Position numbers and translations under genes: made by a program. From sequence record PZ019085.1: a stretch of DNA of 64,000 nucleotides, one strand, 5' to 3'. Below the pieces are notes generated by a model, which worked only from the letters and a program-made list of their open reading frames with translations, was not told the origin of the DNA and did no database searches. Source of the DNA: a phage. Shown here piece after piece: positions 6,312 to 57,564 of this stretch; the stretch's first letter is position 1; every line of letters starts with the position of its first letter.

Positions 6312-6655
6312 CCAAAATGTTGGCTTTAATAGTTGGCTTGGTTTCATTTAACGCTCTTGCTAATACTACATATACTGATATAACGGAGTATACAAACAGA
6401 ACGGCGTCTGATTATTGTGGTCAAAGTCAAGAGTGTAAAGTAGATTTTTCACAAAAATTGTTATATGCGTATAAAGACGGAGAAAAAGATGGGGCGTCTA
6501 GTAGGTTCAAGGCGTCTACCTTAATTAAAAGATACTATAAAAAATGGCAAATATTAGAATGCTCGGTGGCGGAACCTAAAGATAAGGCAGCATGCAATTC
6601 TATGGTAGACCGTCTAGTTGACTCTTATAATAGAGGACTTGCAGCAAGTGATTAA
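6308..6655 (+). CDS. Secreted Cys-containing hypothetical protein
   Basis: Signal peptide MTKMLALIVGLVSFNALA. Confidence 0.5.
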   Translation: MTKMLALIVGLVSFNALANTTYTDITEYTNRTASDYCGQSQECKVDFSQKLLYAYKDGEKDGASSRFKASTLIKRYYKKWQILECSVAEPKDKAACNSMVDRLVDSYNRGLAASD

Positions 6656-11957: not shown

Positions 11958-11988
11958 GTAGATAAATAACCCTTAACTTGAGGTAAAT

Positions 11989-12255
11989 ATGAAAAAACTA
12001 GTAATTGGTTTATTCGCAGTAATGATGGCGTTCTCTGTTGGTGCTACCATGGGTGCAGGAGCTGGTGGTAACCAGTCTTCTGGGCCTTCTAATGGTTCTG
12101 TAAATGCATCACATTCTCAGGGTATTGAGAACATTAAATCAAGCTATATTAATAGCACGGCTGGACAAGCAACTGAAGCATGGTCAAAGGGCCGAGTAGT
12201 TACTCACTCCGTATTCTGTGATATGCCTAATTATGTTGCTAAGTGCGATAAGTAA
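11989..12255 (+). CDS. Secreted Gly/Ser-rich hypothetical protein
   Basis: Signal peptide MKKLVIGLFAVMMAFSVGA. Confidence 0.5.
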   Translation: MKKLVIGLFAVMMAFSVGATMGAGAGGNQSSGPSNGSVNASHSQGIENIKSSYINSTAGQATEAWSKGRVVTHSVFCDMPNYVAKCDK

Positions 12256-12374
12256 ATGTGGGGACCTTCGGGTCCCTTTAGGGGGTTAAAATATTTTTAA
12301 AAAAGTAGTGTACATGCTTTTAGGATATGTTATTATAGACCTATCGAAACGAAATGAGTAAATTGGAGAATAAA

Positions 12375-36646: not shown

Positions 36647-37282
36647 ATGAAAACTACACCAATCACTATCGCTATTGACGCAATCGTAAAACAAGCTTCA
36701 TCTCTTGCCACTATGGCTAAAGTAATTAGTCAAAACCCTGCCCGATATAATGCTATTCTTGAAACTCTTCGTCGCCCTGGACTGAGTAATTATGAAAGCC
36801 GAGTAATTATTACAGGTGTTGGTAAGAATGCTAATATTGCAACTAAAGCTTCTGAGACATTTGCTTCATTAGGTATTCCTAGCATGTATTTGAACACTGG
36901 GCATTATTCTCATGGTGACGCAGGATTTATTGCACCTAATGATGTATTAGTTCACATCAGTCGTTCTGGTAAGACTGAAGAAATGATAGGTGTTGCTAAA
37001 CATCTTCGTATGATTCGTCCTCAGGTTAAACAGATTCTGTTACATTGTAACCCTGACATTCCACAAGAATACGAAGCTCTTTTTGATTATACGTTCTGTA
37101 CCGGTATCGCGGTAGAAGTTGACGAGAACTCTTTAGCTCCGACGATGTCTACTACATTGTTGTTAGCGCTTATCGATACGTTCGCTATCAACCTTTCATC
37201 TGAACGTGGATTTACCTCTAATGATTTCCTTAAGTTCCATCCAGGCGGTGCACTAGGTGCCATGTTACGAGGCGAGCAATGA
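36647..37282 (+). CDS. SIS-domain sugar-phosphate isomerase (KdsD/GutQ/GmhA-like)
   Basis: ITGVGKNANIATKASETFASLGIPSMYLNTG...HGD...VLVHISRSGKTEEM matches the SIS-domain pattern of arabinose-5-phosphate or phosphoheptose isomerases; no CBS domain. Confidence 0.8.
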   Translation: MKTTPITIAIDAIVKQASSLATMAKVISQNPARYNAILETLRRPGLSNYESRVIITGVGKNANIATKASETFASLGIPSMYLNTGHYSHGDAGFIAPNDVLVHISRSGKTEEMIGVAKHLRMIRPQVKQILLHCNPDIPQEYEALFDYTFCTGIAVEVDENSLAPTMSTTLLLALIDTFAINLSSERGFTSNDFLKFHPGGALGAMLRGEQ

Positions 37283-37422
37283 AAGCAATAACAATAGGAC
37301 TTTTACTATTGATGCTTGTCATGACTATCTATTGGAGCTTAACGGCTCCAGTAATGATTCCAACACTTGTAATTGGATGGATTATGATTGGACTACAAGC
37401 AAAGTATGAATGCTTTAACTAG
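37279..37422 (+). CDS. Possible 47-aa two-TM membrane peptide
   Basis: MKAITIGLLLLMLVMTIYWSLTAPVMIPTLVIGWIMIGLQAKYECFN; ATGA-type overlap with the SIS gene stop. Confidence 0.3.
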   Translation: MKAITIGLLLLMLVMTIYWSLTAPVMIPTLVIGWIMIGLQAKYECFN

Positions 37423-37463
37423 AATAGTGTACAATACTCCTACTTACCAATGAGGACCACAAC

Positions 37464-39149
37464 ATGAAAAAAGCTGTTATTCTTGGTGCTGGACTGGCAA
37501 CTCGTTTGTATCCAATAACGCATCATATTCCTAAGGTGCTTGTTAACTATAAACAAGACACTATTCTGAGCAATTTGTATACAATTTATTCTGACCTTGG
37601 CGCAGATGAAATTATTGTAGTAGTTCATTCAAAATTTGCTGAAACTGTTCGAGCTTATTGTGAGCAAGAAGGGTTCAATGTGACTATTCGTACAGTTGAT
37701 GAAGCATACGGATCTGCTTATGCTCTTGCTAAATTACACAAAGATTTAGACGGCCATAATGTAATTGTTAACTGGTGCGATATTATTCCTGATTTTGGTT
37801 CATGGTCTTGGAATGTTAACGCAATCTATGTTAAGGGTGACGAATGTCGGTATAATTTCGACGGTGAAAATATCACTAACGTAGGTTCAACAGGTGGTAA
37901 TGTTGTAGGAATTTATCAGTTCAAAGACTGGGAATTCTATATGGGTTCTACCGATGAGGAAATTCATGAATACTGCAAAGGACGTGATTTCGTAGAATTC
38001 CTTTACAGCGGCGCATTCAATAAATCAGAGCTTATGAATATAATTGATTTAGGTGATATGCCTAAACTTGAAAAAGCTCATGAAGTTCGTGAACTTAATC
38101 GTAGTTTTAATGCAGTTGAAATTGGTGAAGAAACTGTAACTAAATTCGCATTAACCGAACAGGGCCGAGCTCTTCAGAAAGATGAGATTTCATGGTATCT
38201 TAAAGTGAAATCAGATTCAGTTCCTCAGTTAGTTTCTGTTAATGAAAATAACTTTGAAATGGAACGCATTAAAGGTAAGCCGGCATTTGAATATATTAAA
38301 TCCAAATCAAGTCTTGCTCGTCCACAAATTGTTGATGCAATTTTAGATGCACTGAAATTCAGCACAGACACTTATTTTGTAAGTCCTGAAACTGTTCGTC
38401 GTGATTTCACTAAAGAATTCTATACGAAAGTTATTGATCGTTGTGAAAGTATTCAACCATTGATTGATTCATTTGGTAAAATCACACATGTGAACTACAC
38501 TAAGATTGGACGTCTGAAGCCAATGCTGAAACAAGCTTTAGAACACCTTATTCGTTATCATAACCGTTCTCAGGGACAGTACTCTGTTATTCATGGTGAC
38601 CCTAACTTCAGTAATACTATGATTACTGATAACGGCGAAGTCAAGTTTATCGACCCTCGTGGATATTTTGGTGAAACCAAGATTTACGGGCCAAAATTGT
38701 ATGACGAAGCTAAAGTGCTTTATGCTGTTTCAGGTTATGATGAATTCAATGCTAATCCGACCTGGGGACAGTTTACTATTGATGAAACAACTTGTAATGT
38801 GACTATTAACATCAATCCATTAATTTACAAATATGGAAAGATGAGTTCGTTTAACGAGTATCATCATTTGGCGGTGGCAATTATCTGGATTGCATTGGGT
38901 GGTTATTTCAAGAATAATCCACTTAAAGCGGTAGCCGCATATTATAAAGGTATGGAACTTCTGACTAAGCAATTACGTAACATGGGCCGTGTACTTCAGG
39001 ACGGCTCTATTAGTTATGACGTAGCAGAACCTGTAACGGCTACTCTGATTACAAAAAATCCTGGTAAATGGGTACTAACTGATAAAGAAACTGGTGTTTC
39101 TTATCGTCCAATCGGTGGCGATATCACTCATCAATGGGAACGAATCTAA
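37464..39149 (+). CDS. Bifunctional sugar-1-phosphate nucleotidylyltransferase / APH-like sugar kinase
   Basis: N-terminal ILGAGLATRL (RmlA/GlmU-type NTP-transferase G-x-G-T-R motif); C-terminal HGDPNFSNTMI ... FIDPRG (phosphotransferase/choline-kinase-like catalytic loop). Confidence 0.75.
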   Translation: MKKAVILGAGLATRLYPITHHIPKVLVNYKQDTILSNLYTIYSDLGADEIIVVVHSKFAETVRAYCEQEGFNVTIRTVDEAYGSAYALAKLHKDLDGHNVIVNWCDIIPDFGSWSWNVNAIYVKGDECRYNFDGENITNVGSTGGNVVGIYQFKDWEFYMGSTDEEIHEYCKGRDFVEFLYSGAFNKSELMNIIDLGDMPKLEKAHEVRELNRSFNAVEIGEETVTKFALTEQGRALQKDEISWYLKVKSDSVPQLVSVNENNFEMERIKGKPAFEYIKSKSSLARPQIVDAILDALKFSTDTYFVSPETVRRDFTKEFYTKVIDRCESIQPLIDSFGKITHVNYTKIGRLKPMLKQALEHLIRYHNRSQGQYSVIHGDPNFSNTMITDNGEVKFIDPRGYFGETKIYGPKLYDEAKVLYAVSGYDEFNANPTWGQFTIDETTCNVTININPLIYKYGKMSSFNEYHHLAVAIIWIALGGYFKNNPLKAVAAYYKGMELLTKQLRNMGRVLQDGSISYDVAEPVTATLITKNPGKWVLTDKETGVSYRPIGGDITHQWERI

Positions 39150-39535
39150 TGCATCGTGTAGAAAACATGCTTAATCTTTGTTTTGATGTCGACGATTGTA
39201 TAACAGAGTGGAATAACAATCGTGATTACGTGAACTTCAAGCCAGACGTCGAAATGGTGTCTGCCATTAATGCCCTGTATGATGCAGGGCATACCATAAC
39301 GCTTTACACTGCTCGTGGTATGAAGTCAGTAGGTCCTGGTCGTATAGCAATTGACATTCTCCCAAGTCTGATTCAGAACTTGGCAAACATTGGCTTGAAG
39401 TACCATAATTTGCTAACACATAAACCAGTATATGATTGGATTATCGACGACAAAGCTATGCGTCCCGACGAATTCAAAGCTCTTATGAATAAAGGCGAAT
39501 TCGAAACATTTAAATCATATAAACCGAATCTATAA
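39149..39535 (+). CDS. HAD-superfamily phosphatase-like protein
   Basis: FDVDDCIT near the N-terminus, TARG, WIIDDKA; size typical of KdsC/GmhB-type small HAD phosphatases. Confidence 0.55.
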   Translation: MHRVENMLNLCFDVDDCITEWNNNRDYVNFKPDVEMVSAINALYDAGHTITLYTARGMKSVGPGRIAIDILPSLIQNLANIGLKYHNLLTHKPVYDWIIDDKAMRPDEFKALMNKGEFETFKSYKPNL

Positions 39536-39589
39536 TAATTTAAGTAAGACCTGCAAAAACCATCGCATAAATTAACGCGAGATGCAAAA

Positions 39590-40750
39590 ATGAATACTTT
39601 TAAAATCGGAACGAATTTTGATTTAGCTCTTCTTGATAAAATCGTAGAGCTCAATAAAACTTATCCTAATAGCTTGATAAACGAAGTATACGGCTCTACA
39701 AGAGAAATGGCTTTTGTAGCAGCCAGACCTGATTTTAGGCTTCCTGACGTTGACAAAAAGATGTTAGAAGATTACGTTAAACGTTGTAATGAATTAGGTA
39801 TTTGCTTTAACTATACACTCAACACGATAAATCCCGGTTCAAAAAGAGAACTAGTTGAGTGGAAGAAGAAAGCTATTCAGGATTATGTTCAGTATCTTTG
39901 GTCAATAGGCGTATGGCGTATTACTATCGCTAACCCTGTTGTTATGGAAATTGTTCGTGAAGTCAATAAAGACATTGAGATTGAAGTTTCAACAATTCTA
40001 CATGTCGATGCTGTAACTCAAATCAAATACTTACATGACCAATACAATATCAAAAAGGTCTGCTGTGGAATTCATAAGAACCGTTCAGTTTCTTTCCTGA
40101 AGCGTGCAGCAGAGTTTTGCAATAAGAACAATATAATATTTGAAGTTCTTGTAAATGAGTTCTGTTCTAATGCTGGTAAAGGGTATACAACACATTGTAG
40201 CTATCGTGACTCTTGCTATATTTTCCATAGTACTGATGTTACAGCTGATGATGCTAAATCCTTAAACGGGTATCCAATGCAACACTGCATTAAAGCTCGT
40301 GATACAGACCCATTTAACTGGTTGAGAACTCGTTTTGTTCGTCCTCAAGATTTGAAACTTTATAATGATATTGGTATCACTCAATTCAAAGTTTCAGGAC
40401 GTACAGGTAGCACAGACTACATTTTGAAAGTTCTTGAAGCATACGCTTCTGAAAAGTTTGAAGGTAATTTGTTAGAACTGTGGAAGCCTTTAGAGACTAT
40501 TTTCACTCTTGAAAACGAAACTGAGTTTTCACATACAGTAAATATTGAAACCTCTTTGTTAGATGGCTTTTTAGAAAAAAGGTGGTTCAGGCATCCAGAT
40601 TTCGATTGTGCTAATGAAATCTGTGGGACGACGTGTACATATTGTGAAAGATATTATAAACGTCAGTTATCTAAAAACGGGTTAGCAGAAAACTCTATAT
40701 CTATTATTGATATAACTAACTCTGATGACGCTTTGAGGTACCCAGAATGA
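39590..40750 (+). CDS. Cys-rich hypothetical enzyme in the sugar island
   Basis: 386 aa with multiple conserved-looking Cys clusters (CANEICGTTCTYC, EFCSNAGKGYTTHCSY); fold not assignable by eye. Confidence 0.55.
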   Translation: MNTFKIGTNFDLALLDKIVELNKTYPNSLINEVYGSTREMAFVAARPDFRLPDVDKKMLEDYVKRCNELGICFNYTLNTINPGSKRELVEWKKKAIQDYVQYLWSIGVWRITIANPVVMEIVREVNKDIEIEVSTILHVDAVTQIKYLHDQYNIKKVCCGIHKNRSVSFLKRAAEFCNKNNIIFEVLVNEFCSNAGKGYTTHCSYRDSCYIFHSTDVTADDAKSLNGYPMQHCIKARDTDPFNWLRTRFVRPQDLKLYNDIGITQFKVSGRTGSTDYILKVLEAYASEKFEGNLLELWKPLETIFTLENETEFSHTVNIETSLLDGFLEKRWFRHPDFDCANEICGTTCTYCERYYKRQLSKNGLAENSISIIDITNSDDALRYPE

Positions 40751-41030
40751 TTTCTAGAAAAACTTTTAACCACCAACTTAATGAAGAGATTTTGACTATG
40801 AAACTGAACACTAACGAACAAATTCTTAAAAAGGCCCTTATGGGGGCCTGTTTGAAACCAAAGCGGCTAAAGTGATTAAAGAACCTGTTCAATTGGAATA
40901 CTACGCTGATGCATTTCTTCATAGTGTTCTTGGAAGTATCGATGCTGAAGCTTTACGGTATATCAACACTGCCAAGAAATTCAAATAAGCTTTACGAATC
41001 GAGTATATAATAAATTGTATTGAGGTAAAC

Positions 41031-41747
41031 ATGGGAAAACATAACACAATGAAATATATCAAAGCCGCAGATTTTCAAACCGCATTTAAAGCAGTCAATC
41101 GTGAAATTTTAGAAAACCCGGAATTCGTAACTGATTCTCGTATTGGACGTTGTAATGAAATTGGGTCTATGACAGTAGTTGTTGACACTCCATCGTCATT
41201 CAAAATGACCGACCCACGTATTAACCGCATCTCTTATGAATATGCCGAAGACTTCTGGAAGTTTATGATTTCTGGTGGTACTGATGCAGAAGAAGCGTTT
41301 AAGGCATATCCTAATGTCGCTAAATTTATTTCTAAACCAAAATCGGATGCTTTGCCTGCAAACTTCAACACTTTCTATGGTCCTCGCATTGCGGCCCAAT
41401 TACCAACTCTTCTAAAAGAACTTAAAGAGAAACCTAACTCTCGAAGAGTTGTGTTCCAAATTCTAGAAAGTTCAGATCAGGCTTTGCTTGATTCGGACGA
41501 AACACTTGAATATCCATGTACTGACTCAGTGACTTATTATATTCGTGATGGTAAGCTTTATACCCACTGTCATATGCGTTCTCAGAACTGTGCTGTTGTT
41601 ATGCAGTTGGATTTTTATCTCCAAGGAAAATTACTTCATTATATCGCTAACGAATGCGGTGTAGAAGTAGGTGATTATACTCATACCATGGTAAGTGCCC
41701 ATGTGTTTGAACGTGATTTTGATTATGTTAAAGGATTCCTTGACTAA
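41031..41747 (+). CDS. 42: dCMP hydroxymethylase (thymidylate-synthase superfamily)
   Basis: PCTDSVTYYIRDGK ... MRSQNCAV resembles the catalytic Cys region of T4 gp42; syntenic position. Confidence 0.75.
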   Translation: MGKHNTMKYIKAADFQTAFKAVNREILENPEFVTDSRIGRCNEIGSMTVVVDTPSSFKMTDPRINRISYEYAEDFWKFMISGGTDAEEAFKAYPNVAKFISKPKSDALPANFNTFYGPRIAAQLPTLLKELKEKPNSRRVVFQILESSDQALLDSDETLEYPCTDSVTYYIRDGKLYTHCHMRSQNCAVVMQLDFYLQGKLLHYIANECGVEVGDYTHTMVSAHVFERDFDYVKGFLD

Positions 41748-42646
41748 TGGCTATTTTCCGCGTACCTATCTTGAGTATGCGGTCTTATGAAACTGGTCAG
41801 TATGCTATCCTTAAGGATGGCAACTTCCAACTTCATTTGCACCGTGCTAATCCAGGCGATGTGATTACATATCCACGTAATGCATCTGATATTAAAGAAT
41901 GTGAACGTCTTTTCCCGGAATTTAAGTTTGTTCCATTATGGTATAAAGATAACGCGTATAACACTCGTAAATATTTCTGGTCTGAAAATGAATTTGTGGT
42001 TGATTCATTAATTGCTTATTATGATTGTGATTTTCTAATCACAGATATCACTGGATATGATGGCGCTTTTGACGTAGAATTCAATTTCAATATCACTGCA
42101 GACCCTAATAAACCACGTTTTTATATTGATGAATTCTTAAAAACCGACATGTTGTCTGTTAATCGTTCACTTCAAACTACTGTGTTGAATGAACGTCAAA
42201 AAGAAGTGCTGGTTAACGCAGGTGCAGATGGTAATAAGATTATCGTAACGCAGAAAGTTATACGTCCTTCCGTCATGCAGCGTCTTGTAGGTGATTTGGC
42301 TCCTATTCATCTAGATGGTATTTTTCATCCATTTCGAATTAGTGACCCATGCTATCGTTTTGAACAAGTTGTTGAATGCGCAATTCAATTAGGTCAACCG
42401 CTTTATATAACTGATCCAAATAATAGTTTCGACAGAAATAAGTATCCTGAAGAAGCGCTGATTCGAATTTTTAATCCAACTAAAACTGAGTACTATCAAA
42501 TTCTTAAAGGACGTCCGAAGATTCAATATTTCGAAAATCCTGAAGAAGTATTCCATCCAGGTCTTGGTGAGTTCATCTACTTTAATGCTTTAATTTCTTC
42601 ACCGTATAATATACCTAAATACGAAGATGTCGTAATCGAGGAATAA
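41747..42646 (+). CDS. Hypothetical protein at the position of T4 beta-glucosyltransferase
   Basis: 299 aa; no match to T4 beta-gt noticed. Confidence 0.55.
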   Translation: MAIFRVPILSMRSYETGQYAILKDGNFQLHLHRANPGDVITYPRNASDIKECERLFPEFKFVPLWYKDNAYNTRKYFWSENEFVVDSLIAYYDCDFLITDITGYDGAFDVEFNFNITADPNKPRFYIDEFLKTDMLSVNRSLQTTVLNERQKEVLVNAGADGNKIIVTQKVIRPSVMQRLVGDLAPIHLDGIFHPFRISDPCYRFEQVVECAIQLGQPLYITDPNNSFDRNKYPEEALIRIFNPTKTEYYQILKGRPKIQYFENPEEVFHPGLGEFIYFNALISSPYNIPKYEDVVIEE

Positions 42647-42647
42647 A

Positions 42648-43196
42648 ATGGCTAAAATTATTTTAGTAGACGGCCCGGATAATGCTGGTAAAACAACTTT
42701 CATTAATGACATAATGGAAATTAGTGAAAGATATGTAAAGATTGATTTCCCTAAACGAACAGTTGATGGACGTTTCGATGTTAAGTCTCGAAATGAAGTT
42801 GGCTGTTTCGAAACGATGTTGAATTATTTAGACCCTACTAAGATTTATCTGTTAGACCGTGGATATATTAGTAACTGGGTTTATGGACGTATTCGACAAG
42901 ATGTGGACTCGGTTCTTGACGTTTATGAACAGGATTATGTTCGTCTTTGCCAAAACCATGATGTGTTCACAATTATTTTAACACGTAACGAAATGACTGA
43001 AAGTTTTGAAGACGACCTTATTACTTTGTCTTCATTCGGTTTTAATACAGTCATTTCATATTTTGAAGAGTTTGCAATTCATAACAAAATCCAAACGTAT
43101 CAATTACTTAATCATGATGGTGCTAACAAAGTTATAGGATTTAATGCAAGCGAACGTAATTATTTGATTACAGAAATCATTAAATGGGCTCGTTAA
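42648..43196 (+). CDS. P-loop nucleotide kinase (thymidylate/dNMP kinase-like)
   Basis: Walker A DGPDNAGKTT and LLDRGYIS (DRY-like motif of the TMPK fold). Confidence 0.55.
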   Translation: MAKIILVDGPDNAGKTTFINDIMEISERYVKIDFPKRTVDGRFDVKSRNEVGCFETMLNYLDPTKIYLLDRGYISNWVYGRIRQDVDSVLDVYEQDYVRLCQNHDVFTIILTRNEMTESFEDDLITLSSFGFNTVISYFEEFAIHNKIQTYQLLNHDGANKVIGFNASERNYLITEIIKWAR

Positions 43197-43294
43197 GAGC
43201 CATTTAAAGTTTTAAATGCTGTATAACCCTTAGTATATAATCATCTTATCCTTTAAACATGAGTAAAATATAATGATGCCTATGGAAAAATACA

Positions 43295-44467
43295 ATGTCT
43301 GATTTAAAATCTCGTCTGATTAAAGCTTCTACTTCTAAAATGACTGCAGACTTGACTAAGTCTAAGCTGTTTAATAATCGTGATGAAGTCCCTACTCGTA
43401 TTCCGATGTTGAATATTGCATTAGGTGGTGCACTGAATGCAGGGTTGCAATCAGGCTTAACTATTTTTGCTGCTCCTTCTAAACACTTTAAAACGTTGTT
43501 TGGACTAACTATGGTTGCAGCATATATGAAGAAATATAAAGATGCAATTTGTTTGTTCTATGATTCAGAATTTGGTGCTTCAGAATCTTATTTTCGTTCA
43601 ATGGGTGTTGATTTAGACCGTGTAGTTCATACTCCGATTCAATCTGTCGAACAACTTAAAGTTGATATGACTAATCAGCTTGACGCGATTGAACGCGGTG
43701 ATAAAGTTATTATCTTTATCGATTCAATCGGTAATACTGCATCTAAGAAAGAAACCGAAGATGCGTTGAACGAGAAAGTTGTAGGTGATATGTCTCGTGC
43801 TAAGGCACTTAAATCTCTTTTCCGTATTGTGACCCCGTATCTGACTATTAAAGATATCCCGTGTGTTGCAATCAACCATACAGCAATGGAAATCGGCGGA
43901 CTATATCCTAAAGAGATTATGGGTGGTGGTACAGGTATTCTTTACTCTGCTAACACCGTATTCTTTATCTCTAAACGTCAGGTTAAAGAAGGTACAGAAT
44001 TAACCGGTTATGACTTCACGTTGAAAGCAGAAAAATCTCGTACAGTTAAAGAGAAATCTACTTTCCCGATCACGGTTAATTTTGATGGCGGTATTGACCC
44101 ATTCAGTGGCTTGTTAGAAATGGCAACTGAAATCGGTTTTGTGGTTAAGCCTAAAGCTGGTTGGTATGCTCGTGAATTCCTTGACGAAGAAACAGGTGAA
44201 ATGATTCGTGAAGAAAAATCATGGCGTGCTAAAGCTACTGATTGTGTAGAATTCTGGGGACCATTGTTTAAACACAAACCTTTCCGAGATGCAATTGAAA
44301 CTAAATATAAACTAGGTGCTATCTCTTCTATTAAAGAAGTTGATGACGCTGTTAATGACCTTATTAATTGCAAAGCAACAACTAAAGTTCCGGTTAAAAC
44401 TTCTGATGCTCCATCCGCAGCAGATATAGAAAACGACCTTGACGAAATGGAAGATTTCGATGAATAA
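43295..44467 (+). CDS. uvsX: RecA-like recombinase UvsX
   Basis: Matches T4 UvsX; Walker A-like APSKHFKT; acidic C-terminal tail. Confidence 0.95.
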   Translation: MSDLKSRLIKASTSKMTADLTKSKLFNNRDEVPTRIPMLNIALGGALNAGLQSGLTIFAAPSKHFKTLFGLTMVAAYMKKYKDAICLFYDSEFGASESYFRSMGVDLDRVVHTPIQSVEQLKVDMTNQLDAIERGDKVIIFIDSIGNTASKKETEDALNEKVVGDMSRAKALKSLFRIVTPYLTIKDIPCVAINHTAMEIGGLYPKEIMGGGTGILYSANTVFFISKRQVKEGTELTGYDFTLKAEKSRTVKEKSTFPITVNFDGGIDPFSGLLEMATEIGFVVKPKAGWYAREFLDEETGEMIREEKSWRAKATDCVEFWGPLFKHKPFRDAIETKYKLGAISSIKEVDDAVNDLINCKATTKVPVKTSDAPSAADIENDLDEMEDFDE

Positions 44468-48086: not shown

Positions 48087-48380
48087 ATGAAAAAGTTATC
48101 ATTGGCAGCAATCTTACTTGCAGTATCATGTGCACCGGCTCCAGTTACAGCAGGTTATGATAAAGACCTCTGTGAGTGGTCAATGACTGCAAATCAAGAA
48201 GATGTTGAACAACAAATCTTCTCTGATATCATGAACATCACTAAACGAGACCGTCCTAATATGGTTAATAAAGTTGTTGAACAACTTAAGTCTGGCGGTA
48301 TCATGCAGTACAACTATGTTTTGTATTGTGACCCTAATTTCGATAACAAAGATATCGTAACCGAAATCACAGGTGAATAA
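48087..48380 (+). CDS. sp: Spackle-like periplasmic protein
   Basis: 97 aa with signal peptide; GYDKDLCEWSM ... YVLYCD resembles T4 Sp as recalled; position in the 41-61 interval. Confidence 0.65.
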   Translation: MKKLSLAAILLAVSCAPAPVTAGYDKDLCEWSMTANQEDVEQQIFSDIMNITKRDRPNMVNKVVEQLKSGGIMQYNYVLYCDPNFDNKDIVTEITGE

Positions 48381-48381
48381 T

Positions 48382-49032
48382 ATGATTTATTATATGCACA
48401 AAAATGCGCCGTTTAAATATGGTAAATTTCCTAATGCACAATGTTATAATATAACGCCGAATGAAAATAATAATGGATACCATATTGGTGTAATTTTTGT
48501 AATTGTTAAAGATAATGAAATCGTTGCCTGGGCAGATTTTAAAGGTACAACGTATGATGTTAATCCTGTGCCTTTCACGTATTACAATATAATGGATTTG
48601 GCATATGATTATAATTGGTTTACTCATGACACGTTGGCTCATATTGAAGGTGTAGGATTTGACATCTCTTATTCTAGTTATTCACTATGTCCTATGAGCC
48701 GAGCTCACGGTAAAGATGTATCATATCTTTCAATTCGGAAACGTGTAAACTTCAAACGTAGCACAGAGTATGTTGGTGGACTCTTTGTTAAAGATAATAA
48801 AATAACCCGTATTAGTTATCCTTTAAGTGTAGGTCAAAAAGATGTTGATGTTGATTTAGACTTAACTGAAAGTAACATTAATCGTATTGCTTCTGTATAT
48901 TTTGATATCGATGAAAAAATTGTAGTGTGTGGATACGAATTACCACCTGAAGAAAAGGCTGAAGCAATTGAAGTCGAATTAGAAATTTCTGTCGATGACC
49001 AAATATTTAATGCATTTATGAATCGAGGTTAA
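48382..49032 (+). CDS. Hypothetical protein
   Basis: ORF track; very AT-rich codons. Confidence 0.5.
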   Translation: MIYYMHKNAPFKYGKFPNAQCYNITPNENNNGYHIGVIFVIVKDNEIVAWADFKGTTYDVNPVPFTYYNIMDLAYDYNWFTHDTLAHIEGVGFDISYSSYSLCPMSRAHGKDVSYLSIRKRVNFKRSTEYVGGLFVKDNKITRISYPLSVGQKDVDVDLDLTESNINRIASVYFDIDEKIVVCGYELPPEEKAEAIEVELEISVDDQIFNAFMNRG

Positions 49033-51030: not shown

Positions 51031-51064
51031 TATCTCTCTTACTACTGAATTGAAAGGAAAAATT

Positions 51065-51586
51065 ATGGCGCACTTTAACGAATGTTCACAACTTATTTCT
51101 GGTGTTGATAAAGCAGAAGAAGCTTATTTTAATGCTCTGATTCATGAAGATAAAGACCCACTGCAGGTAATGCTTGATATGCAGAAATCTTTACAGGTTC
51201 GTCTGGCAAATGACAAGCCTGAATATAACAAACATCCTGATGAATTGGCTACCGCCGGTGATGTTGTTGATTGGCTGCGTAATCAGAAAGATTATATTGA
51301 TGATGAATTCCGTGAACTGCTGACTTCACTTGGCGGTATGAGCAATGGTGAAAAAGCCGCTAGCTCTGTATGGAAGCCGTGGAAAGCACAACATGCTGAA
51401 TATCGTAATCGTCGTATCGATGAACTGTCTCCTGAAGACCAGCTTGAAATTAAATTCGAGATGATTGATATCCTCCACTTTGTTCTGAATATGTTCCAAG
51501 GCCTTGGACTTACTGCTGAAGAAATCTTTAAACTGTATTACCTGAAAAATGCTGAAAACTTCGCACGTCAAGACCGAGGTTACTAA
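51065..51586 (+). CDS. 56: dCTPase/dUTPase gp56 (MazG-like)
   Basis: MAHFNECSQLISGVDKAEEAYF... matches T4 gp56. Confidence 0.85.
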   Translation: MAHFNECSQLISGVDKAEEAYFNALIHEDKDPLQVMLDMQKSLQVRLANDKPEYNKHPDELATAGDVVDWLRNQKDYIDDEFRELLTSLGGMSNGEKAASSVWKPWKAQHAEYRNRRIDELSPEDQLEIKFEMIDILHFVLNMFQGLGLTAEEIFKLYYLKNAENFARQDRGY

Positions 51587-51748
51587 TGGCTCGTTTAAAT
51601 AAACGACAGCTTAAGAAAGCCCACAAGAAACGTATTGACCGGCTATTTAAAAATTATGACAAGAAGCTCGTATGTGAGCTCTTATCTAATCAGCTTCAGC
51701 ATGTTAGTCAATTATCAGACCATCTACATATGGTTGATTGGGTTGCAA

Positions 51749-51973
51749 ATGAAACTTGATTTTTATGCATGGCAAAAAGCCGGGAGACCGGCTAATAAAG
51801 CATTCGGCTCTGATGGATATAATACTAGACTCCACTGGAAATTTAATACTCAAGATGATTATTCTCCGGTAATCATTAATGGTGATGTTGTTATATTAGC
51901 TAAATTCGGATATTTTATTGTCCCGAAGAAATTCATTATAAATACACCTGTAATTAAACAACAAAGGAGTTAA
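51749..51973 (+). CDS. Hypothetical small protein
   Basis: Internal ATG of the 51635 ORF; contains the soc late promoter near its 3' end. Confidence 0.35.
   Translation: MKLDFYAWQKAGRPANKAFGSDGYNTRLHWKFNTQDDYSPVIINGDVVILAKFGYFIVPKKFIINTPVIKQQRS
51937..51944 (+). promoter_or_regulatory. Late promoter TATAAATA upstream of soc
   Basis: Exact TATAAATA about 30 nt upstream of the soc ATG. Confidence 0.55.
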
Positions 51974-51975
51974 TT

Positions 51976-52212
51976 ATGGGTGGTTATGTAAACATCAAAA
52001 CCTTTACGCATCCTGCTGGTGAAGGTAAAGAAGTTAAAGGTATGGAAGTTTCTGTACCGTTTGAGATTTATTCAAACGAACATCGGATTGCAGATTCTCA
52101 TTACCAAATCTTTCCATCAGAAAAGGCAGCTTATTCTGATGTCGTTTCTGATGCAGCAACTTGGAAAACTAAGAACGCAGCAATGTTTACCCCTACACCA
52201 GTAAGTGGTTAA
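51976..52212 (+). CDS. soc: Small outer capsid protein Soc
   Basis: MGGYVNIKTF ... HYQIFPSEKAAYS matches T4 Soc. Confidence 0.85.
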   Translation: MGGYVNIKTFTHPAGEGKEVKGMEVSVPFEIYSNEHRIADSHYQIFPSEKAAYSDVVSDAATWKTKNAAMFTPTPVSG

Positions 52213-52220
52213 ATAATTTA

Positions 52221-52246
52221 AGGAATCCTTCGGGATTCCTTTTTTT
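52221..52246 (+). terminator. Rho-independent terminator
   Basis: aggaatcc-ttcg-ggattcct followed by six T. Confidence 0.75.
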
Positions 52247-52313
52247 GTTTCTACAGTTTACAACCACTAAAAACTGTGTTAAGATATTCTTACTTACTCA
52301 AGAGGAGAACAAT

Positions 52314-52541
52314 ATGTTAAATCGTTGGATTAAACCTAATAACACATTAGGTGCTTTGATTGCTCAAGAAGTTTCATTAAAGTACGGTCTTGGATATTAC
52401 GATGATGTAGTCGTACACTCATTCATGATGGATGGTGAAGACGTCAAATTTAATGCTGAAATCCGTTGGGATGATGGTGGTGTTCGTTTTGTTCGAGGAA
52501 CAATTAATGCTTACGATACTGAAGAAGTTGTTTTCTGTTAA
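52314..52541 (+). CDS. Hypothetical protein
   Basis: ATG 52314 after agaggag. Confidence 0.45.
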   Translation: MLNRWIKPNNTLGALIAQEVSLKYGLGYYDDVVVHSFMMDGEDVKFNAEIRWDDGGVRFVRGTINAYDTEEVVFC

Positions 52542-52930
52542 ACCAGGCGAAGGTATGATGCCTATTCCTGATACACATGAAAAAGGTTGGGAATATATCG
52601 GTGACGGCATGATGGAAGAAGTTGTTCGTCCAAAAACAAAACATGTTAATGCTTCAAGCTCTTCAAGTTATAATCATTCATACGTATCGTCTTGGTCTGG
52701 TGATTCCGGGTCAAGTTATTCTGATTGTGGTTCAAGCTCAGGGAGCTGCGAATGAACAAGATAGTTAAATGGTTTAAAAGCTGGGACGATGGTGTCGGTC
52801 CAGAAGATTGGCTGGATGTTCTTGAAGAGAATATGGCTAAAGAATTCCAGAAACATGAAGAAAAGCTCGTCGAAGATGAAGGCGAACGTATTGTAAAACT
52901 TTATATGGGTGAACCATCGAGGAAATTATA

Positions 52931-53395
52931 ATGGATGCTATGCTATTTAAAATGTATTTGCTTGAAGCCAAGTCATTTAAACATATACCAGTGGAAGATA
53001 AGACTCCACTAGAAATAGCTATTCTCATTAATAAAAGTCTAAATAATCCGCAATATATTGTAGAAGAATTCTGTAAATTGCAGATTCCTAAAGGTTACAA
53101 AATTCGTGTAGAGCGAGTTGGAGCTATTACTCGTTCTAAAAATTCTCCGTTTAGTCTTGAAGAAGGCATAAAGGACTTAGGTTATGAATCTACGGAAAAT
53201 GCAGTTTATGTGAATCCTGAAAAGCGTTTAGACTTGTTTGAAAAGCGAGACCATAAGTATTTTGCCAAAAAATACTTTATTACATCATTAGCAGATTTAG
53301 TCCATTTGCAACGTGCTATTTGGAAATTTTTTAAGACAAAAGGTGTAGCACTAGAAACATTCTCTGAACCAGCTAGTTTTTATCTAGGTGAATAA
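52931..53395 (+). CDS. Hypothetical protein
   Basis: ORF track. Confidence 0.45.
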   Translation: MDAMLFKMYLLEAKSFKHIPVEDKTPLEIAILINKSLNNPQYIVEEFCKLQIPKGYKIRVERVGAITRSKNSPFSLEEGIKDLGYESTENAVYVNPEKRLDLFEKRDHKYFAKKYFITSLADLVHLQRAIWKFFKTKGVALETFSEPASFYLGE

Positions 53396-53792
53396 TATGG
53401 ACCTTATGAGTATGTTTGACGAGCCTGAAGTTGAGGCTCCTAAAGTGCATCGTAGTGAACTTATTGATGAACTAGATAGTATTATACAACGACACGGCTT
53501 TAGTTTACCTGTTGAAGCCCTGAAAGACCTTGCCTCTTATTATGACGACCCGCCACCATGGAGTCCTTGGAAATGAAAGAAAAATTTAAAGAGAAATTCT
53601 TACTAGAAATCAAGGAAAAAGACTTTGAGACATGGTACCGAATGGTGAAAGGGTTGACATTGCTTTTTAAAGCGTCCTTATTCATGTTAGAACAACCTGG
53701 TCCTGATGGACCTTTAGTAGGAAAGCTTAAAAAGTAGTTTACATTCCCTCCTCTCGTGTTATGATAGACTTATCTTTAAATGGAGGTCTATC

Positions 53793-54374
53793 ATGACATG
53801 TCAATCTGAACTTCAAGAACGCGAATACCTAACAAATCTGATTGATAGCAAATTCACCCGCCAAGAACAAAACATTCTCTGGGCTTGCACTGATTCTAAG
53901 GAAGACCCGGATTTCCACTATGAATTAGACCATCTTGTTCGTAAGCATATGACTTCTACAGTACCAGTAGAACTCTACCGTGGTGTAACTCCAGAAGAAA
54001 TAGAACGTCTTTCACTTCTTTCTGTTGGATGCCATTGGTCTCCTGGACGAGTAACATCGTTCACAACTGATTTCAACACAGCTCGTCAATTCTCTGGGAG
54101 TTGGGAATATCAGACGTACACTATTCTTAGTCTCAGGAATGCTCCATTCATTTTTGATTACTACCAAAACATGGTTAACATTGTACTCGCCGGAAAGAAC
54201 CCTAAGCATGTTATGGAAGAAACGCGTGTTGACGTCCTAGATATGATTGAATCTGAACAAGAGTACATGGTCTCAGGTATCTCTAGATTTGAGATTGTGG
54301 AAATTGAAGAGTTAGAGTATGACCCTTTGTCTCGAGTATACAAAATCATTCACTTAAAGATGTTGAATTTTTAG
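53793..54374 (+). CDS. ADP-ribosyltransferase-like protein (ModB-like)
   Basis: R-S-E triad candidates (LYRG, SFTTD, EQEYMVS); position between soc and dda as for T4 modA/modB. Confidence 0.55.
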   Translation: MTCQSELQEREYLTNLIDSKFTRQEQNILWACTDSKEDPDFHYELDHLVRKHMTSTVPVELYRGVTPEEIERLSLLSVGCHWSPGRVTSFTTDFNTARQFSGSWEYQTYTILSLRNAPFIFDYYQNMVNIVLAGKNPKHVMEETRVDVLDMIESEQEYMVSGISRFEIVEIEELEYDPLSRVYKIIHLKMLNF

Positions 54375-54431
54375 TGTACAAACTCTACCTACGATGATAC
54401 TATACTTTTATCAACCACAGGAGAAACCTAA

Positions 54432-55040
54432 ATGTTTATGCCGTATAACGAGTGTGAAATTGAAGAAATGGTTCGTCGTGCTCAAAACCCCGAATATCAA
54501 GATGTATTGCAGTACGAAATTGATAGTCAATTCAGCGACATTGAACAAAGTGTACTATGGCAGTGTATGGAAAACAAGCCAGACTGTATTCAACAGGAGT
54601 TAAGTTCAATCGTTCGTAGAAATTGGACGTCTTCTGTTCCTGAGACAATGTATCGCGGAATCTCTAAGAAAACTATGGCCACACTCGATGATAAAGGCGT
54701 TGGTAGTATTATTAAATTTGACAGAGTAATGAGCTTTAGTCCGGTGTTTGGTGTAGCACGTAACTTCGCTTCATATAATTTTTATGGAACATTTAATATG
54801 TTCTGCATCAAAGATGCACCATTTGCTTTCAACTTCCGTGAACATATGCTTAATATGATTCTGGCTGCACCATCTTGTGAGTTCAATGGAGCTTTCCCTG
54901 AAGCGACAAGACGGTCTAATGCTAGACTTATATCTGACGAATGTGAATTTATGCTCCCTATAGGGACTACACTGCGTGTAGATTCTATTATTCAAGATGG
55001 ACGTTATACAATCTGGAATCTGTCTATTGTCAGTTACTGA
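54432..55040 (+). CDS. ADP-ribosyltransferase-like protein (ModA-like)
   Basis: MYRG, SFSPVF, ECEFML motif arrangement; paralogous to the preceding gene. Confidence 0.55.
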   Translation: MFMPYNECEIEEMVRRAQNPEYQDVLQYEIDSQFSDIEQSVLWQCMENKPDCIQQELSSIVRRNWTSSVPETMYRGISKKTMATLDDKGVGSIIKFDRVMSFSPVFGVARNFASYNFYGTFNMFCIKDAPFAFNFREHMLNMILAAPSCEFNGAFPEATRRSNARLISDECEFMLPIGTTLRVDSIIQDGRYTIWNLSIVSY

Positions 55041-55193
55041 CTGGATTGGAATAACCGGATGGAACTCAGAACCATTATAACACATAAAAAATTAAAGCAT
55101 TTTACGAAAAAAGAGTGTACACTACCTGAGGGCATGATATTATAAGACCTATCAGCTAAATGATCTAACGTCCGTAAGACAGAGGAAAATATT

Positions 55194-55940
55194 ATGTTAT
55201 CAAATAATAAAATTAACAAAATCAATCGTCGTCTTGACCATACCAGAGCTTCTGCGAAGAGACGCTCTAAGGATTTTAACTTAGATTTTAATTACCTTAA
55301 AAACATTCTTGATCAAAAGGTCTGCGCTTACTCAGGTGAATCTTTCAATAACTCTGTTGAAGGTGAGAAATTATCCTTAGAACGTTTTAATAATGATATC
55401 GGCTACATTAAAGGTAATGTTATCCCAGTTAAGAAAAAATATAACACGGCTCGTTCTGATTTAACATTAGAAGAACTTATTGAGAAACGTGATGCCATTG
55501 CAAGACGTATCGCTAATCCTTCTGCCCGTAAAGTAGAGAAACTTAATCTCGACGAGAAGAAATGGACCCAAATTAAAAAGGTTTATGGTACTATTTTAAA
55601 AATACGAGCAAAACGTGAAAATCGTGTTAAGCATATGGCGAACATGATGAAAAATCAACCTTTATCTAACGAATCTAAACTTAGAATTGTTGCTTTGAAA
55701 GCACGCATTAATGGCTCACATCAGGCAGAAGGCCATGAACTTACTAAACTCAACGTTCTTCTTAAAGGCTCTGACTGGAAAACTAAAACTAAATTAACTG
55801 ACGCTGAATCGCTTTTCGATACATATGATAAAGTTATCCAAGGTCTGCAACGTTTTGAAAAGATTGGTTTCATTGGTAAATTAAAATTGAAACGTGGCTT
55901 ACCACTTAGCGCATCATTATTCCAACTGATTAAAGGTTAA
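55194..55940 (+). CDS. Hypothetical basic protein at the position of T4 srd
   Basis: Position and size only. Confidence 0.4.
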   Translation: MLSNNKINKINRRLDHTRASAKRRSKDFNLDFNYLKNILDQKVCAYSGESFNNSVEGEKLSLERFNNDIGYIKGNVIPVKKKYNTARSDLTLEELIEKRDAIARRIANPSARKVEKLNLDEKKWTQIKKVYGTILKIRAKRENRVKHMANMMKNQPLSNESKLRIVALKARINGSHQAEGHELTKLNVLLKGSDWKTKTKLTDAESLFDTYDKVIQGLQRFEKIGFIGKLKLKRGLPLSASLFQLIKG

Positions 55941-55942
55941 TT

Positions 55943-56254
55943 ATGGTTTATGTATATGCAATAGTTTATCGAGATATGGAAGGATTTACTATCCCGGTTC
56001 CACTTGATGAGCATCGTCCTGCAGTATTTTTTAGAAAGGATATTGCAGATAAAGTTTTCGATACTTTGAAAACACAGTATAAAACAGATTTAAAATTGGG
56101 AGCTCTAAGAATGGTCGAAACTCCGCGTAAGTTCTGGTTTAATAAGCTTGAAATGAAACACGTTAAACTAGATGCGGAGACGCAAAGATTGTATCAACGA
56201 ATCCTGGACACAGGCCGTATTGTTAGTATTCCAATTGCAGGGACTTTACGATGA
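55943..56254 (+). CDS. Hypothetical protein
   Basis: ORF track. Confidence 0.45.
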   Translation: MVYVYAIVYRDMEGFTIPVPLDEHRPAVFFRKDIADKVFDTLKTQYKTDLKLGALRMVETPRKFWFNKLEMKHVKLDAETQRLYQRILDTGRIVSIPIAGTLR

Positions 56255-57564
56255 CATTTGATGATTTGACTGAAGGCCAGAAAAATGCCTTCAACGTTGT
56301 TATGGAAGCTATTAAAGAAAAGAAACATCATGTAACTATTAATGGACCTGCTGGTACAGGTAAAACAACCCTTACTAGATTCATCGTTGAAGCCCTTATT
56401 TCTTCTGGAGAATCAGGTATTATTTTAGCAGCCCCTACACATGCTGCTAAAAAGGTTCTAAGCAAACTTGCAGGTCAAGAAGCATCGACTATTCATAGCA
56501 TTCTTAAAATCAACCCAACCACATACGAAGAAAACGTATTATTTGAACAGAAAAAGGTTCCCGACTTAGCCTTGTGTCGTGTACTGTTATTTGATGAAGC
56601 GTCAATGTGCGACCGTTCTCTGTTTAAAATAATGTTAGCTAGTATCCCTAAATGGTGTACAGTAATTGGAATCGGCGACCGATGCCAGATTCGTCCGGTA
56701 GACCCAGGCGAATCAACTGCGTATCTAAGTCCTTTCTTCACTCACAAAGACTTCGTGCAATGCAACCTTACAGAAGTTAAACGTAGCAATGCACCAATTA
56801 TTGATGTTGCGACTGATATTCGTAACGGCAAATGGATTTACGATAAAGTAGTTGATGGGCACGGTGTTCATGGATATACAGACCTTAAATCGTATATGAT
56901 GAACTATTTTAACGTCGTTAAAACTCCTGAAGACCTTTTCGAAAATCGAATGATGGCATTCACAAATAAGTCGGTGGACAAGTTAAATTCAATTATTCGC
57001 CGAAAACTTCTTGAAACAGAAAAACCATTTATTAAAGACGAAGTCATTGTTCTACAAGAGCCATTTACTAAGACATATAAGCTAGACGGTAAAAATATGA
57101 CCGAAATGCTTTTCAATAATGGGCAATTCGTTCGTATTCGAGACGCCGTAGAAACGTCTACATTCGTTAAAGCACGTGGTGTTTCAGGCGAATATATGAT
57201 ACGATACTGGAATCTTACAGTAGAAACATATGGTGATGATGAAGAATATATCCGCGAAGATATAAAGGTTATTTCTTCTGAAGAAGAGCTTTATAAATTC
57301 AATTTGTTTTTGGCTAAGACCGCAGAAACATACAAATTCTGGAATAAAGGTGGTAAAGCTCCATGGAGCGAATTCTGGGATGCTAAACGTATGTTCACTA
57401 AGGTGAAGGCACTACCGGTATCAACCTTCCATAAGGCCCAGGGTATGTCTGTTGACACGGCCTTTGTTTATACACCGTGTATCCATTATGCCGATTCAGA
57501 ATTAGCTAAACAGTTATTGTATGTCGGCACAACTCGTGGTCGGTTTGACGTCCATTTTATTTGA
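56251..57564 (+). CDS. dda: SF1B DNA helicase Dda
   Basis: MTFDDLTEGQKNAFNVVMEAIKEKKHHVTINGPAGTGKTT... matches T4 Dda. Confidence 0.95.
   Translation: MTFDDLTEGQKNAFNVVMEAIKEKKHHVTINGPAGTGKTTLTRFIVEALISSGESGIILAAPTHAAKKVLSKLAGQEASTIHSILKINPTTYEENVLFEQKKVPDLALCRVLLFDEASMCDRSLFKIMLASIPKWCTVIGIGDRCQIRPVDPGESTAYLSPFFTHKDFVQCNLTEVKRSNAPIIDVATDIRNGKWIYDKVVDGHGVHGYTDLKSYMMNYFNVVKTPEDLFENRMMAFTNKSVDKLNSIIRRKLLETEKPFIKDEVIVLQEPFTKTYKLDGKNMTEMLFNNGQFVRIRDAVETSTFVKARGVSGEYMIRYWNLTVETYGDDEEYIREDIKVISSEEELYKFNLFLAKTAETYKFWNKGGKAPWSEFWDAKRMFTKVKALPVSTFHKAQGMSVDTAFVYTPCIHYADSELAKQLLYVGTTRGRFDVHFI

What the first reader, a model, noticed from the sequence alone, without database searches (positions are those of the whole stretch)
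53793..55040. Tandem ModA/ModB-like ADP-ribosyltransferase pair
Two adjacent paralogs of about 200 aa each carry plausible R / S-x-S / E-x-E catalytic elements and lie where T4 modA and modB sit. They complement the macro-domain gene as a writer and possible eraser set.
Basis: partly seen in the sequence, partly recalled or inferred. Interest (0 to 1): 0.45.

Follow-up and report, generated by a model that had tools for sequence, protein, structure and literature searches.

The report
Phage modB–modA ADP-ribosyltransferase gene pair
These are the well-known modB and modA genes of an RB69/JS09-type T4-like coliphage, two small enzymes predicted to attach ADP-ribose to host proteins early in infection; the finding is correct but ordinary and already annotated in public records.

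Summary
Window 53793-54374 (193 aa) and 54432-55040 (202 aa) are adjacent same-strand paralogues (34% identity, E 1e-27). The window is 98.3% identical in DNA to Escherichia phage JS09 (Mosigvirus, RB69 group), where these two genes are already annotated ModB and ModA.

- **Family:** both match PHROG 832 (RNA polymerase ADP-ribosylase, about 1e-38) and T4 ModA/ModB by BLASTP.
- **Catalytic motif:** both keep the R / S-x-(S/T) / E-x-E residues, which are invariant in 61 family members and align with T4 residues shown by mutation to be needed for activity.
- **Synteny:** the gene order mrh-like, modA.2, small ORF, ORF1, ORF2, srd, dda.1, dda follows T4.

By raw score both proteins look more like T4 ModB. 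A quartet test nevertheless favours ORF1 = ModB and ORF2 = ModA (85-89% of bootstraps).

The writer/eraser idea is not supported. The macro-domain gene lies 47 kb away and is 83% identical to T4 Tk.4/AdfM, which a 2025 preprint reports as a counter-defence factor against the host DarTG2 system.

Verdict: real, already known, low interest.

The parts
53738..53765 (+). Early-promoter-like site upstream of ORF1 (TTTACA, 16 nt, TATGAT, with TG before the -10; preceded by G, giving GTTTACA)
   Evidence: Best-scoring site of the scan, 10 of 12 matches; sequence read. The scan as a whole is not enriched over shuffles (11 found, 10.5 expected), so this is a positional inference only.
53793..54374 (+). 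ORF1, 193 aa: Mod-family mono-ADP-ribosyltransferase at the modB position. Catalytic codons: R63 53979-53981, S89 54057-54059, E155 54255-54257, E157 54261-54263. A GGAGG Shine-Dalgarno sequence lies 7 nt before the ATG.
   Evidence: phrog_832 4.8e-38. 38% identical to T4 ModB, E 2e-28. Annotated ModB in JS09 as JS09_0162. AF2 pLDDT 89.4. Foldseek top hits are Certhrax, CDTa, iota toxin Ia, HopU1 and C3. Motif residues invariant in the family.
54375..54403 (+). Weak promoter-like site in the 57-nt spacer between the two genes (TGTACA, 17 nt including TGa, TACTAT), followed by an AGGAG Shine-Dalgarno sequence. In T4, modB and modA overlap by 4 nt instead.
   Evidence: Read by eye. It scores 8 of 12, below the threshold of the scan, so this is inference only. 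T4 overlap taken from the coordinates (modA 11908-12510, modB 12507-13130).
54432..55040 (+). ORF2, 202 aa: Mod-family mono-ADP-ribosyltransferase at the modA position. Catalytic codons: R75 54654-54656, S101 54732-54734, E170 54939-54941, E172 54945-54947.

Best explanation
The two ORFs are the Mosigvirus (RB69/JS09-group) counterparts of T4 modB (ORF1, 53793-54374) and modA (ORF2, 54432-55040). Each encodes a small protein of about 200 aa in the R-S-ExE clade of mono-ADP-ribosyltransferases.

Proposed mechanism, by analogy with T4:
- The genes are transcribed early.
- Each enzyme binds NAD+ through the conserved Arg (beta-strand 1) and Ser (beta-strand 2).
- The second Glu of the E-x-E motif drives transfer of ADP-ribose onto arginine side chains of host proteins.

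In T4, ModA modifies Arg265 of both RNA polymerase alpha subunits, which blocks UP-element and CRP-dependent transcription. T4 ModB modifies ribosomal protein S1, EF-Tu and trigger factor, and can also attach NAD-capped RNA to S1 and L2 (RNAylation).

Shown here: homology, paralogy, an intact catalytic motif, the ART fold and synteny. Inferred: enzymatic activity, early expression, and which host proteins each enzyme targets.
For: - **Identity of the phage:** 98.3% DNA identity over 4.7 kb to phage JS09, where the genes are annotated ModB and ModA. Proteins 97% identical or more are annotated as ADP-ribosylases.
- **Family hits:** phrog_832 'RNA polymerase ADP-ribosylase' at about 1e-38 for both proteins. 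All homologues carry the precomputed Pfam PF26816.
- **BLASTP to T4:** E values from 1e-10 to 1e-33 against T4 ModA and ModB.
- **Motif:** R63/S89/E155/E157 (ORF1) and R75/S101/E170/E172 (ORF2) align with T4 ModB R73 and E171-Q-E173 and with T4 ModA R72 and E163-Q-E165. These columns are invariant in 61 family members. T4 ModB R73A and T4 ModA E165A are catalytically dead, and E173 of ModB is reported essential (PMC10468400; PMC11404850; bioRxiv 10.1101/2025.07.11.664405).
- **Fold:** AF2 models with pLDDT 89.4 and 94.4 place R and S on beta-strands and the second Glu at the start of a strand. All top structural neighbours are R-S-E ARTs.
- **Synteny:** the gene order matches T4.
- **Orthology:** the quartet test favours (T4 ModA + ORF2 clade | T4 ModB + ORF1 clade) in 427-446 of 500 bootstraps under four distance corrections.
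- **Selection:** against JS09, codon differences are mostly synonymous, 8 vs 4 and 10 vs 2.
Against: - No experiment exists for the RB69-group proteins; my searches found none.
- The proteins are only 24-38% identical to the T4 enzymes.
- By raw BLAST score both resemble T4 ModB more than T4 ModA: 93 and 106 bits against 45 and 70.
- The deep nodes of the NJ tree are unresolved, with bootstraps below 10%. Transferring the T4 target specificities is therefore uncertain.
- The segment before the ExE helix, which lies just before the catalytic Glu pair, differs in length among all four proteins.
- The local Pfam and NCBIfam libraries have no model that hits either protein.
- The promoter calls are not statistically supported.
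Confidence: 0.9

Rival explanations
1. Independent duplication: the two Mosigvirus genes arose by a duplication separate from the one that produced T4 modA and modB. Neither would then be a true ModA orthologue, and both would be ModB-like in specificity. RNAP alpha Arg265 modification in this phage would be left to Alt or would be absent.
For: Both window proteins score higher against T4 ModB than against T4 ModA. Neither clade joins T4 ModA or T4 ModB with support in the NJ tree. Many related phages carry a single copy: 1748 places in 1081 records, with several genera showing one place per record.
Against: The quartet split (ModA+ModB | ORF1+ORF2) wins only about 10% of bootstraps, against 85-89% for the positional-orthology split. 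T4 ModA's best hits outside its own clade are all in the ORF2 clade (67-96 bits), while the ORF1 clade gives no hit at E <= 1e-5 in that search. Gene order and flanking genes are identical to T4.
Confidence: 0.1
2. Writer/eraser module: the two transferases work together with the macro-domain protein of the window (6618-7115), which would remove the ADP-ribose they add and so make the modification reversible.
For: The window does encode a macro-domain protein (Pfam Macro, 3.4e-6, above the gathering score). Macrodomains are ADP-ribosyl hydrolases in general (PMC9503650).
Against: The gene lies 47 kb away in a different gene block. It is 83% identical to T4 Tk.4, reported as AdfM, an anti-DarTG2 factor. 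Its only NCBIfam and PADLOC matches are to DarG. The arginine-linked ADP-ribose made by ModB was removed with ARH1, not with a macrodomain. A survey of phage NAD/ADPr systems found no direct evidence that stand-alone phage macro domains deconjugate macromolecular adducts.
Confidence: 0.03
3. One of the two copies is a catalytically dead pseudo-enzyme retained for binding only.
For: The paralogues have diverged strongly (34% identity). ORF1 has S-x-T instead of S-x-S and a shorter, lower-confidence segment at residues 131-150 (pLDDT 68-78).
Against: R, G, S and both Glu residues are intact in both copies and invariant across the family. T also occurs at the third motif position in 11 of 61 members, including T4 ModB. 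Both models are confident overall.
Confidence: 0.03

Closest known systems
T4 ModB (NP_049636, 207 aa), an NAD--protein ADP-ribosyltransferase that also attaches NAD-capped RNA to proteins
   Same: The upstream gene of the pair, in the same position between modA.2 and modA. ORF1 is 38% identical (E 2e-28). R73 and E171-Q-E173 align with R63 and E155-Q-E157. S-F-T motif in both. Same predicted R-S-E ART fold.
   Different: ORF1 is 14 aa shorter and lacks about 8-14 residues in the segment before the ExE helix. It is separated from the downstream gene by 57 nt rather than overlapping it. Targets and RNAylation ability are untested.
T4 ModA (NP_049635, 200 aa), the ADP-ribosyltransferase that modifies Arg265 of RNA polymerase alpha
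   Same: The downstream gene of the pair, immediately before srd. ORF2 is 30% identical over 199 residues (E 9e-20). R72 and E163-Q-E165 align with R75 and E170-C-E172. Both have the local strings SDE-x-E and FP(D/E). The quartet test groups them.
   Different: ORF2 scores higher against T4 ModB (106 bits) than against T4 ModA (70 bits). T4 ModA sits on a long branch. RNAP alpha specificity is not shown for ORF2.
RB69/JS09 ModB and ModA (JS09_0162 and JS09_0163; RB69 NP_861709 and NP_861708)
   Same: Essentially the same genes. The closest database clusters are 97% identical in protein (P0013, P0001); against JS09 only 4 of 194 and 2 of 203 codons change the amino acid. DNA is 98.3% identical, with the same lengths, spacing and neighbours.
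   Different: Only a few substitutions.
R-S-E clade bacterial ART toxins (Certhrax, iota toxin Ia/CDTa, VIP2, C3, Vis, HopU1, Tre1)
   Different: Sequence identity is only 10-20%. A profile search of PDB sequences finds nothing significant. The Mod proteins have their own N-terminal helical bundle and no delivery or binding domains.

Membership tests
T4 Mod family of phage ADP-ribosyltransferases (phrog_832 / Pfam PF26816) | Significant sequence homology to T4 ModA/ModB | tested here: met
   phrog_832 4.8e-38 and 6e-38. BLASTP against T4 ModB 2e-28 and 1e-33, against T4 ModA 1e-10 and 9e-20. PF26816 is precomputed on all homologues, but that model is absent from the local Pfam copy.
T4 Mod family of phage ADP-ribosyltransferases (phrog_832 / Pfam PF26816) | Location in the early region between the mrh/modA.x genes and srd-dda | tested here: met
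   The gene order in the window matches T4 and JS09.
R-S-ExE clade of mono-ADP-ribosyltransferases | Conserved Arg, Ser-x-Ser/Thr and Glu-x-Glu aligned with residues shown to be catalytic | tested here: met
   ORF1 R63, S89-F-T91, E155-Q-E157. ORF2 R75, S101-F-S103, E170-C-E172. Invariant in 61 members. They align with T4 ModB R73/E173 and T4 ModA E165, for which inactivating mutations are published.
R-S-ExE clade of mono-ADP-ribosyltransferases | ART catalytic fold | tested here: met
R-S-ExE clade of mono-ADP-ribosyltransferases | NAD-dependent ADP-ribosyl transfer to arginine | not testable with these tools
   Needs biochemistry. No published assay of the RB69-group proteins was found.
ModA orthologue (ORF2) and ModB orthologue (ORF1) specifically | Phylogenetic grouping with the T4 namesake | tested here: inconclusive
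   Deep nodes of the NJ tree are unresolved. Raw scores favour ModB for both proteins. The four-point quartet test favours ORF2+ModA | ORF1+ModB in 85-89% of bootstraps. Position agrees with that split.
ModA orthologue (ORF2) and ModB orthologue (ORF1) specifically | Target specificity: RNAP alpha Arg265 for ModA; S1, EF-Tu, trigger factor and RNAylation for ModB | not testable with these tools
   The T4 targets are taken from PMC2988021, PMC3014915 and PMC10468400. Nothing is known for this phage group.
ART-macrodomain writer/eraser pair | Genomic coupling, and an eraser chemistry that matches the writer's linkage | tested here: not met
   The macro gene is 47 kb away. It is 83% identical to T4 Tk.4/AdfM and DarG-like, so the predicted substrate is DNA-linked rather than arginine-linked ADP-ribose.

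The most novel reading that the evidence does not exclude
The RB69-group enzymes may have drifted far enough from their T4 namesakes to have a different division of labour. They are 24-38% identical to the T4 enzymes, both are closer to ModB in raw score, and the segment before the catalytic Glu pair differs in length. For example, both could act on the translation apparatus or both could RNAylate. Alternatively the pair may serve mainly as counter-defence effectors: in the phage Bas37, insertions in the ModA orthologue were flagged in a screen against the Mokosh type I defence system.
Probability: 0.2. Interest if true: 0.35.

Novelty: already known. Interest (0 to 1): 0.07.

Why it matters
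It matters little as a discovery. The genes have carried the ModB and ModA names in the RB69 group for years (the JS09 record cites the RB69 entries), and they occur in more than a thousand phage records. The useful outcome is a clean annotation, a caution that the ModA/ModB labels in this group rest mainly on gene order and a moderately supported quartet test, and correction of the writer/eraser idea. If someone wished to test whether RNAylation or RNAP alpha modification is conserved beyond T4, these diverged but catalytically intact orthologues would be reasonable candidates.

Tried and rejected
- **Local family libraries.** Pfam-A and NCBIfam scans of both proteins gave no real hit. The only Pfam line, DUF6597 at E 0.089, is noise. 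PADLOC gave nothing.
- **PDB by sequence.** Single-sequence searches returned only chance nucleophosmin matches (E 0.02) or nothing. A profile search gave only a sub-significant match of the ExE strand to XopAI (E 0.13). The fold comparison was needed to link the proteins to solved ARTs.
- **Tiemann et al. 2004.** This paper (J Bacteriol 186:7262) holds the original mutagenesis, but it is not in the library. Catalytic residues were therefore taken from later papers that cite it.
- **Neighbour-joining tree.** The tree of 61 family members did not resolve the deep relationships, so I replaced it with a four-group quartet test.
- **Other coding or RNA features.** Overlapping and antisense ORFs (54771-55085 minus strand, 54012-54209 minus, 54161-54349 minus, 54394-54603 plus, 55034-55225 minus) have no family support. 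Rfam found nothing credible in 52500-56500.
- **Promoter scan.** The generic scan is not enriched over shuffles, so promoter assignments stay tentative.
- **Pseudo-enzyme reading.** Considered and rejected, because the motif is intact in both copies.

Full report
**What is there.** Window 53793-54374 and 54432-55040 are two + strand ORFs of 193 and 202 aa, separated by 57 nt. Each is preceded by a good Shine-Dalgarno sequence: GGAGG for ORF1 and AGGAG for ORF2. They are clear paralogues, at 34% identity over 147 residues with E 1e-27.

**Which genome.** The 4.7 kb around the pair is 98.3% identical to Escherichia phage vB_EcoM_JS09 (Mosigvirus, the RB69 group of Tevenvirinae). A further 153 phage records cover at least 80% of it.

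In JS09 the two genes are JS09_0162 'ModB ADP-ribosylase' and JS09_0163 'ModA RNA polymerase ADP-ribosylase', each cross-referenced to the RB69 proteins. The closest database clusters (P0013, P0001) are 97% identical and their named members are annotated as ribosyltransferases or ADP-ribosylases; individual phage records reach 99.5%. The finding therefore re-discovers an existing annotation.

**Context.** The gene order in the window is:
- an Mrh-family ORF (52931-53395; Pfam T4_MRH, 1e-37)
- modA.2 (53388-53576)
- a small conserved ORF (53558-53737)
- ORF1
- ORF2
- srd (55194-55940; phrog_1400, 2e-99)
- dda.1 (55943-56254)
- dda (56251-57564)

T4, read in its direction of transcription, has modA.3 (Mrh-like), modA.2, modB, modA, srd, dda.1, dda. 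So ORF1 sits at the modB position and ORF2 at the modA position.

One small difference: T4 modB and modA overlap by 4 nt, whereas here a 57-nt spacer separates them. Promoter-like sites lie upstream of ORF1 (GTTTACA, 16 nt, TGtTATGAT; 53738-53765) and, more weakly, in the spacer (54375-54403). The generic scan is not enriched over shuffles, so these remain inferences.

**Family membership.**
- Both proteins hit phrog_832 'RNA polymerase ADP-ribosylase' at about 1e-38.
- Both hit T4 ModB (E 2e-28 and 1e-33) and T4 ModA (E 1e-10 and 9e-20) by BLASTP.
- The local Pfam and NCBIfam copies have no model for them, although every homologue in the large protein collection carries a precomputed PF26816.
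- tblastn finds the family in 1081 phage records at 1748 places, so most T4-like coliphages have two copies and several other genera have one.
- A full HMM search of 1.8 billion representatives finds only 43 clusters at E <= 1e-10, including domains inside giant polyvalent proteins.

**Catalytic motif.** In the four-way alignment with T4 ModA and ModB, numbered by script:

| Protein | Arg | Ser motif | Glu motif |
|---|---|---|---|
| ORF1 | R63 | S89-F-T91 | E155-Q-E157 |
| ORF2 | R75 | S101-F-S103 | E170-C-E172 |
| T4 ModB | R73 | S99-F-T101 | E171-Q-E173 |
| T4 ModA | R72 | S96-A-S98 | E163-Q-E165 |

The R, the following G, the S and both E columns are invariant in 61 aligned family members.

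Published work ties these T4 residues to activity:
- ModB R73A is catalytically inactive for both ADP-ribosylation and RNAylation (PMC10468400).
- ModB E173 is reported essential and R73 is reported to bind NAD (bioRxiv 10.1101/2025.07.11.664405).
- ModA E165A abolishes ADP-ribosylation in vivo (PMC11404850).

The only correction is that ORF1 has S-x-T rather than S-x-S, as T4 ModB does.

**Fold.** AlphaFold2 models built on a 35-sequence alignment are confident: ORF1 has pLDDT 89.4 and pTM 0.84, ORF2 has pLDDT 94.4 and pTM 0.88. In ORF1, R63 lies on strand 60-64, S89 on strand 88-91, and E157 opens strand 157-160 after a helix. That is the arrangement expected of R-S-E ARTs.

**Which is ModA and which is ModB?** By raw score both window proteins are closer to T4 ModB (93 and 106 bits) than to T4 ModA (45 and 70 bits). 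A bootstrapped NJ tree of 61 members recovers the ORF1 clade (100%) and the ORF2 clade (93%) but leaves every deep node unresolved. T4 ModA sits on a long branch.

Two further observations favour positional orthology:
- T4 ModA's best matches outside its own clade are all ORF2-clade proteins (67-96 bits), while the ORF1 clade gives no hit at E <= 1e-5 in that search.
- A four-group, four-point test gives the split (ModA + ORF2 clade | ModB + ORF1 clade) in 427-446 of 500 bootstraps under four distance corrections. The independent-duplication split wins in only 51-53.

I therefore accept ORF1 = ModB and ORF2 = ModA as the better-supported reading, at roughly 85-90%. The test is distance-based and the branches are long, so this is not settled.

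**How it most likely works.** The following is inferred from T4. Both are early proteins that use NAD+ to ADP-ribosylate arginines of host proteins.
- T4 ModA modifies Arg265 of both RNAP alpha subunits, which abolishes UP-element and CRP contacts (PMC2988021).
- T4 ModB modifies S1, EF-Tu and trigger factor (PMC3014915).
- T4 ModB can also transfer NAD-capped RNA onto S1 and L2, and the inactivating mutant loses burst size and lyses later (PMC10468400).

[quoted passage not shown] None of this has been tested for RB69-group proteins. The variable segment before the ExE helix (lower pLDDT at ORF1 residues 131-150) leaves room for different targets.

**The macro-domain 'eraser'.** The window does encode a macro-domain protein at 6618-7115 (Pfam Macro, 3.4e-6). 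The evidence points away from a link with the Mod pair:
- The gene lies 47 kb from the mod genes, in the tk-vs block.
- It is 83% identical to T4 Tk.4.
- Its only NCBIfam and PADLOC matches are to DarG.
- T4 Tk.4 was recently shown to be required for resistance to DarTG2 and was named AdfM; the authors propose that it removes DarT2-added ADP-ribose from DNA.
- ModB's arginine-linked products were removed with ARH1, which is not a macrodomain.
- A broad survey of viral NAD/ADPr systems found no direct evidence that stand-alone phage macro domains deconjugate macromolecular adducts.

The writer/eraser pairing is therefore not supported.

**Other strands and features.** Overlapping and antisense ORFs have no family support. 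Rfam finds no RNA family in 52500-56500. Codon differences from JS09 are mostly synonymous, 8 vs 4 and 10 vs 2, which fits expressed genes under selective constraint.

**Verdict.** This is a real, correctly identified, catalytically intact modB-modA pair of an RB69/JS09-type phage. It is already known and annotated, so interest is low. The caveat worth recording is that the ModA/ModB labels, and hence the presumed targets, in this genus rest on synteny and a moderately supported quartet test, not on experiment.

Noticed in passing
window 6618-7115 (+); the start is probably internal, near 6648: A macro-domain protein 83% identical to T4 Tk.4, recently named AdfM (an anti-DarTG2 factor). Its only NCBIfam and PADLOC hits are to the DarG antitoxin. 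The listed ORF begins at a TTG 10 codons upstream of the T4/JS09 start.
   Followed up: yes
window 48373-49032 (+): Homologue of T4 gp61.2 = AdfA (anti-DarT factor A), 98% identical to the JS09 protein. Together with the Tk.4/AdfM homologue and the two Mod enzymes, the window holds four genes tied to ADP-ribosylation conflicts. The two 'erasers/blockers' act against host DarT, not against the phage's own transferases.
   Followed up: partly
window 55194-55940 (+): The Srd homologue (phrog_1400, 2e-99) also matches HNH-endonuclease, endonuclease VII and 'decoy of host sigma70' PHROGs over its N-terminal ~100-150 residues (E 4e-18 to 8e-11). This suggests that Srd's N-terminal region derives from an HNH-like fold.
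   Followed up: no
window about 36800-43400 (coordinates from the JS09 annotation, with possible indels): An RB69-group-specific block downstream of DNA polymerase, annotated arabinose 5-phosphate isomerase, phosphoheptose isomerase, peptidase and thymidylate kinase, plus large hypothetical proteins. From memory, this is probably the sugar-modification (arabinosyl-hydroxymethylcytosine) gene set of RB69-type phages. Not checked here.
   Followed up: no
window 52432-52755 (+): An ORF whose C-terminus is a Ser/Gly/Cys-rich low-complexity tail (...SSSSSYNHSYVSSWSGDSGSSYSDCGSSSGSCE). It corresponds to the JS09/RB69 hypothetical ORF025c region between soc and the Mrh-like gene. Function unknown.
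   Followed up: no
window 6.6 kb, 48.4 kb and 53.8 kb, compared with JS09: The window is not perfectly collinear with JS09. The offset between window and JS09 coordinates is +29 at the macro gene, about -364 at gp61.2 and 0 at the mod genes, so there are indels or small gene-content differences in between.
   Followed up: no
window 51050-52931 compared with T4 (L001): Between gene 56 and the Mrh-like gene, the window lacks T4's segF homing endonuclease, srh, mrh.1 and modA.4. It carries RB69-type small ORFs instead. This is typical plasticity of the region.
   Followed up: no
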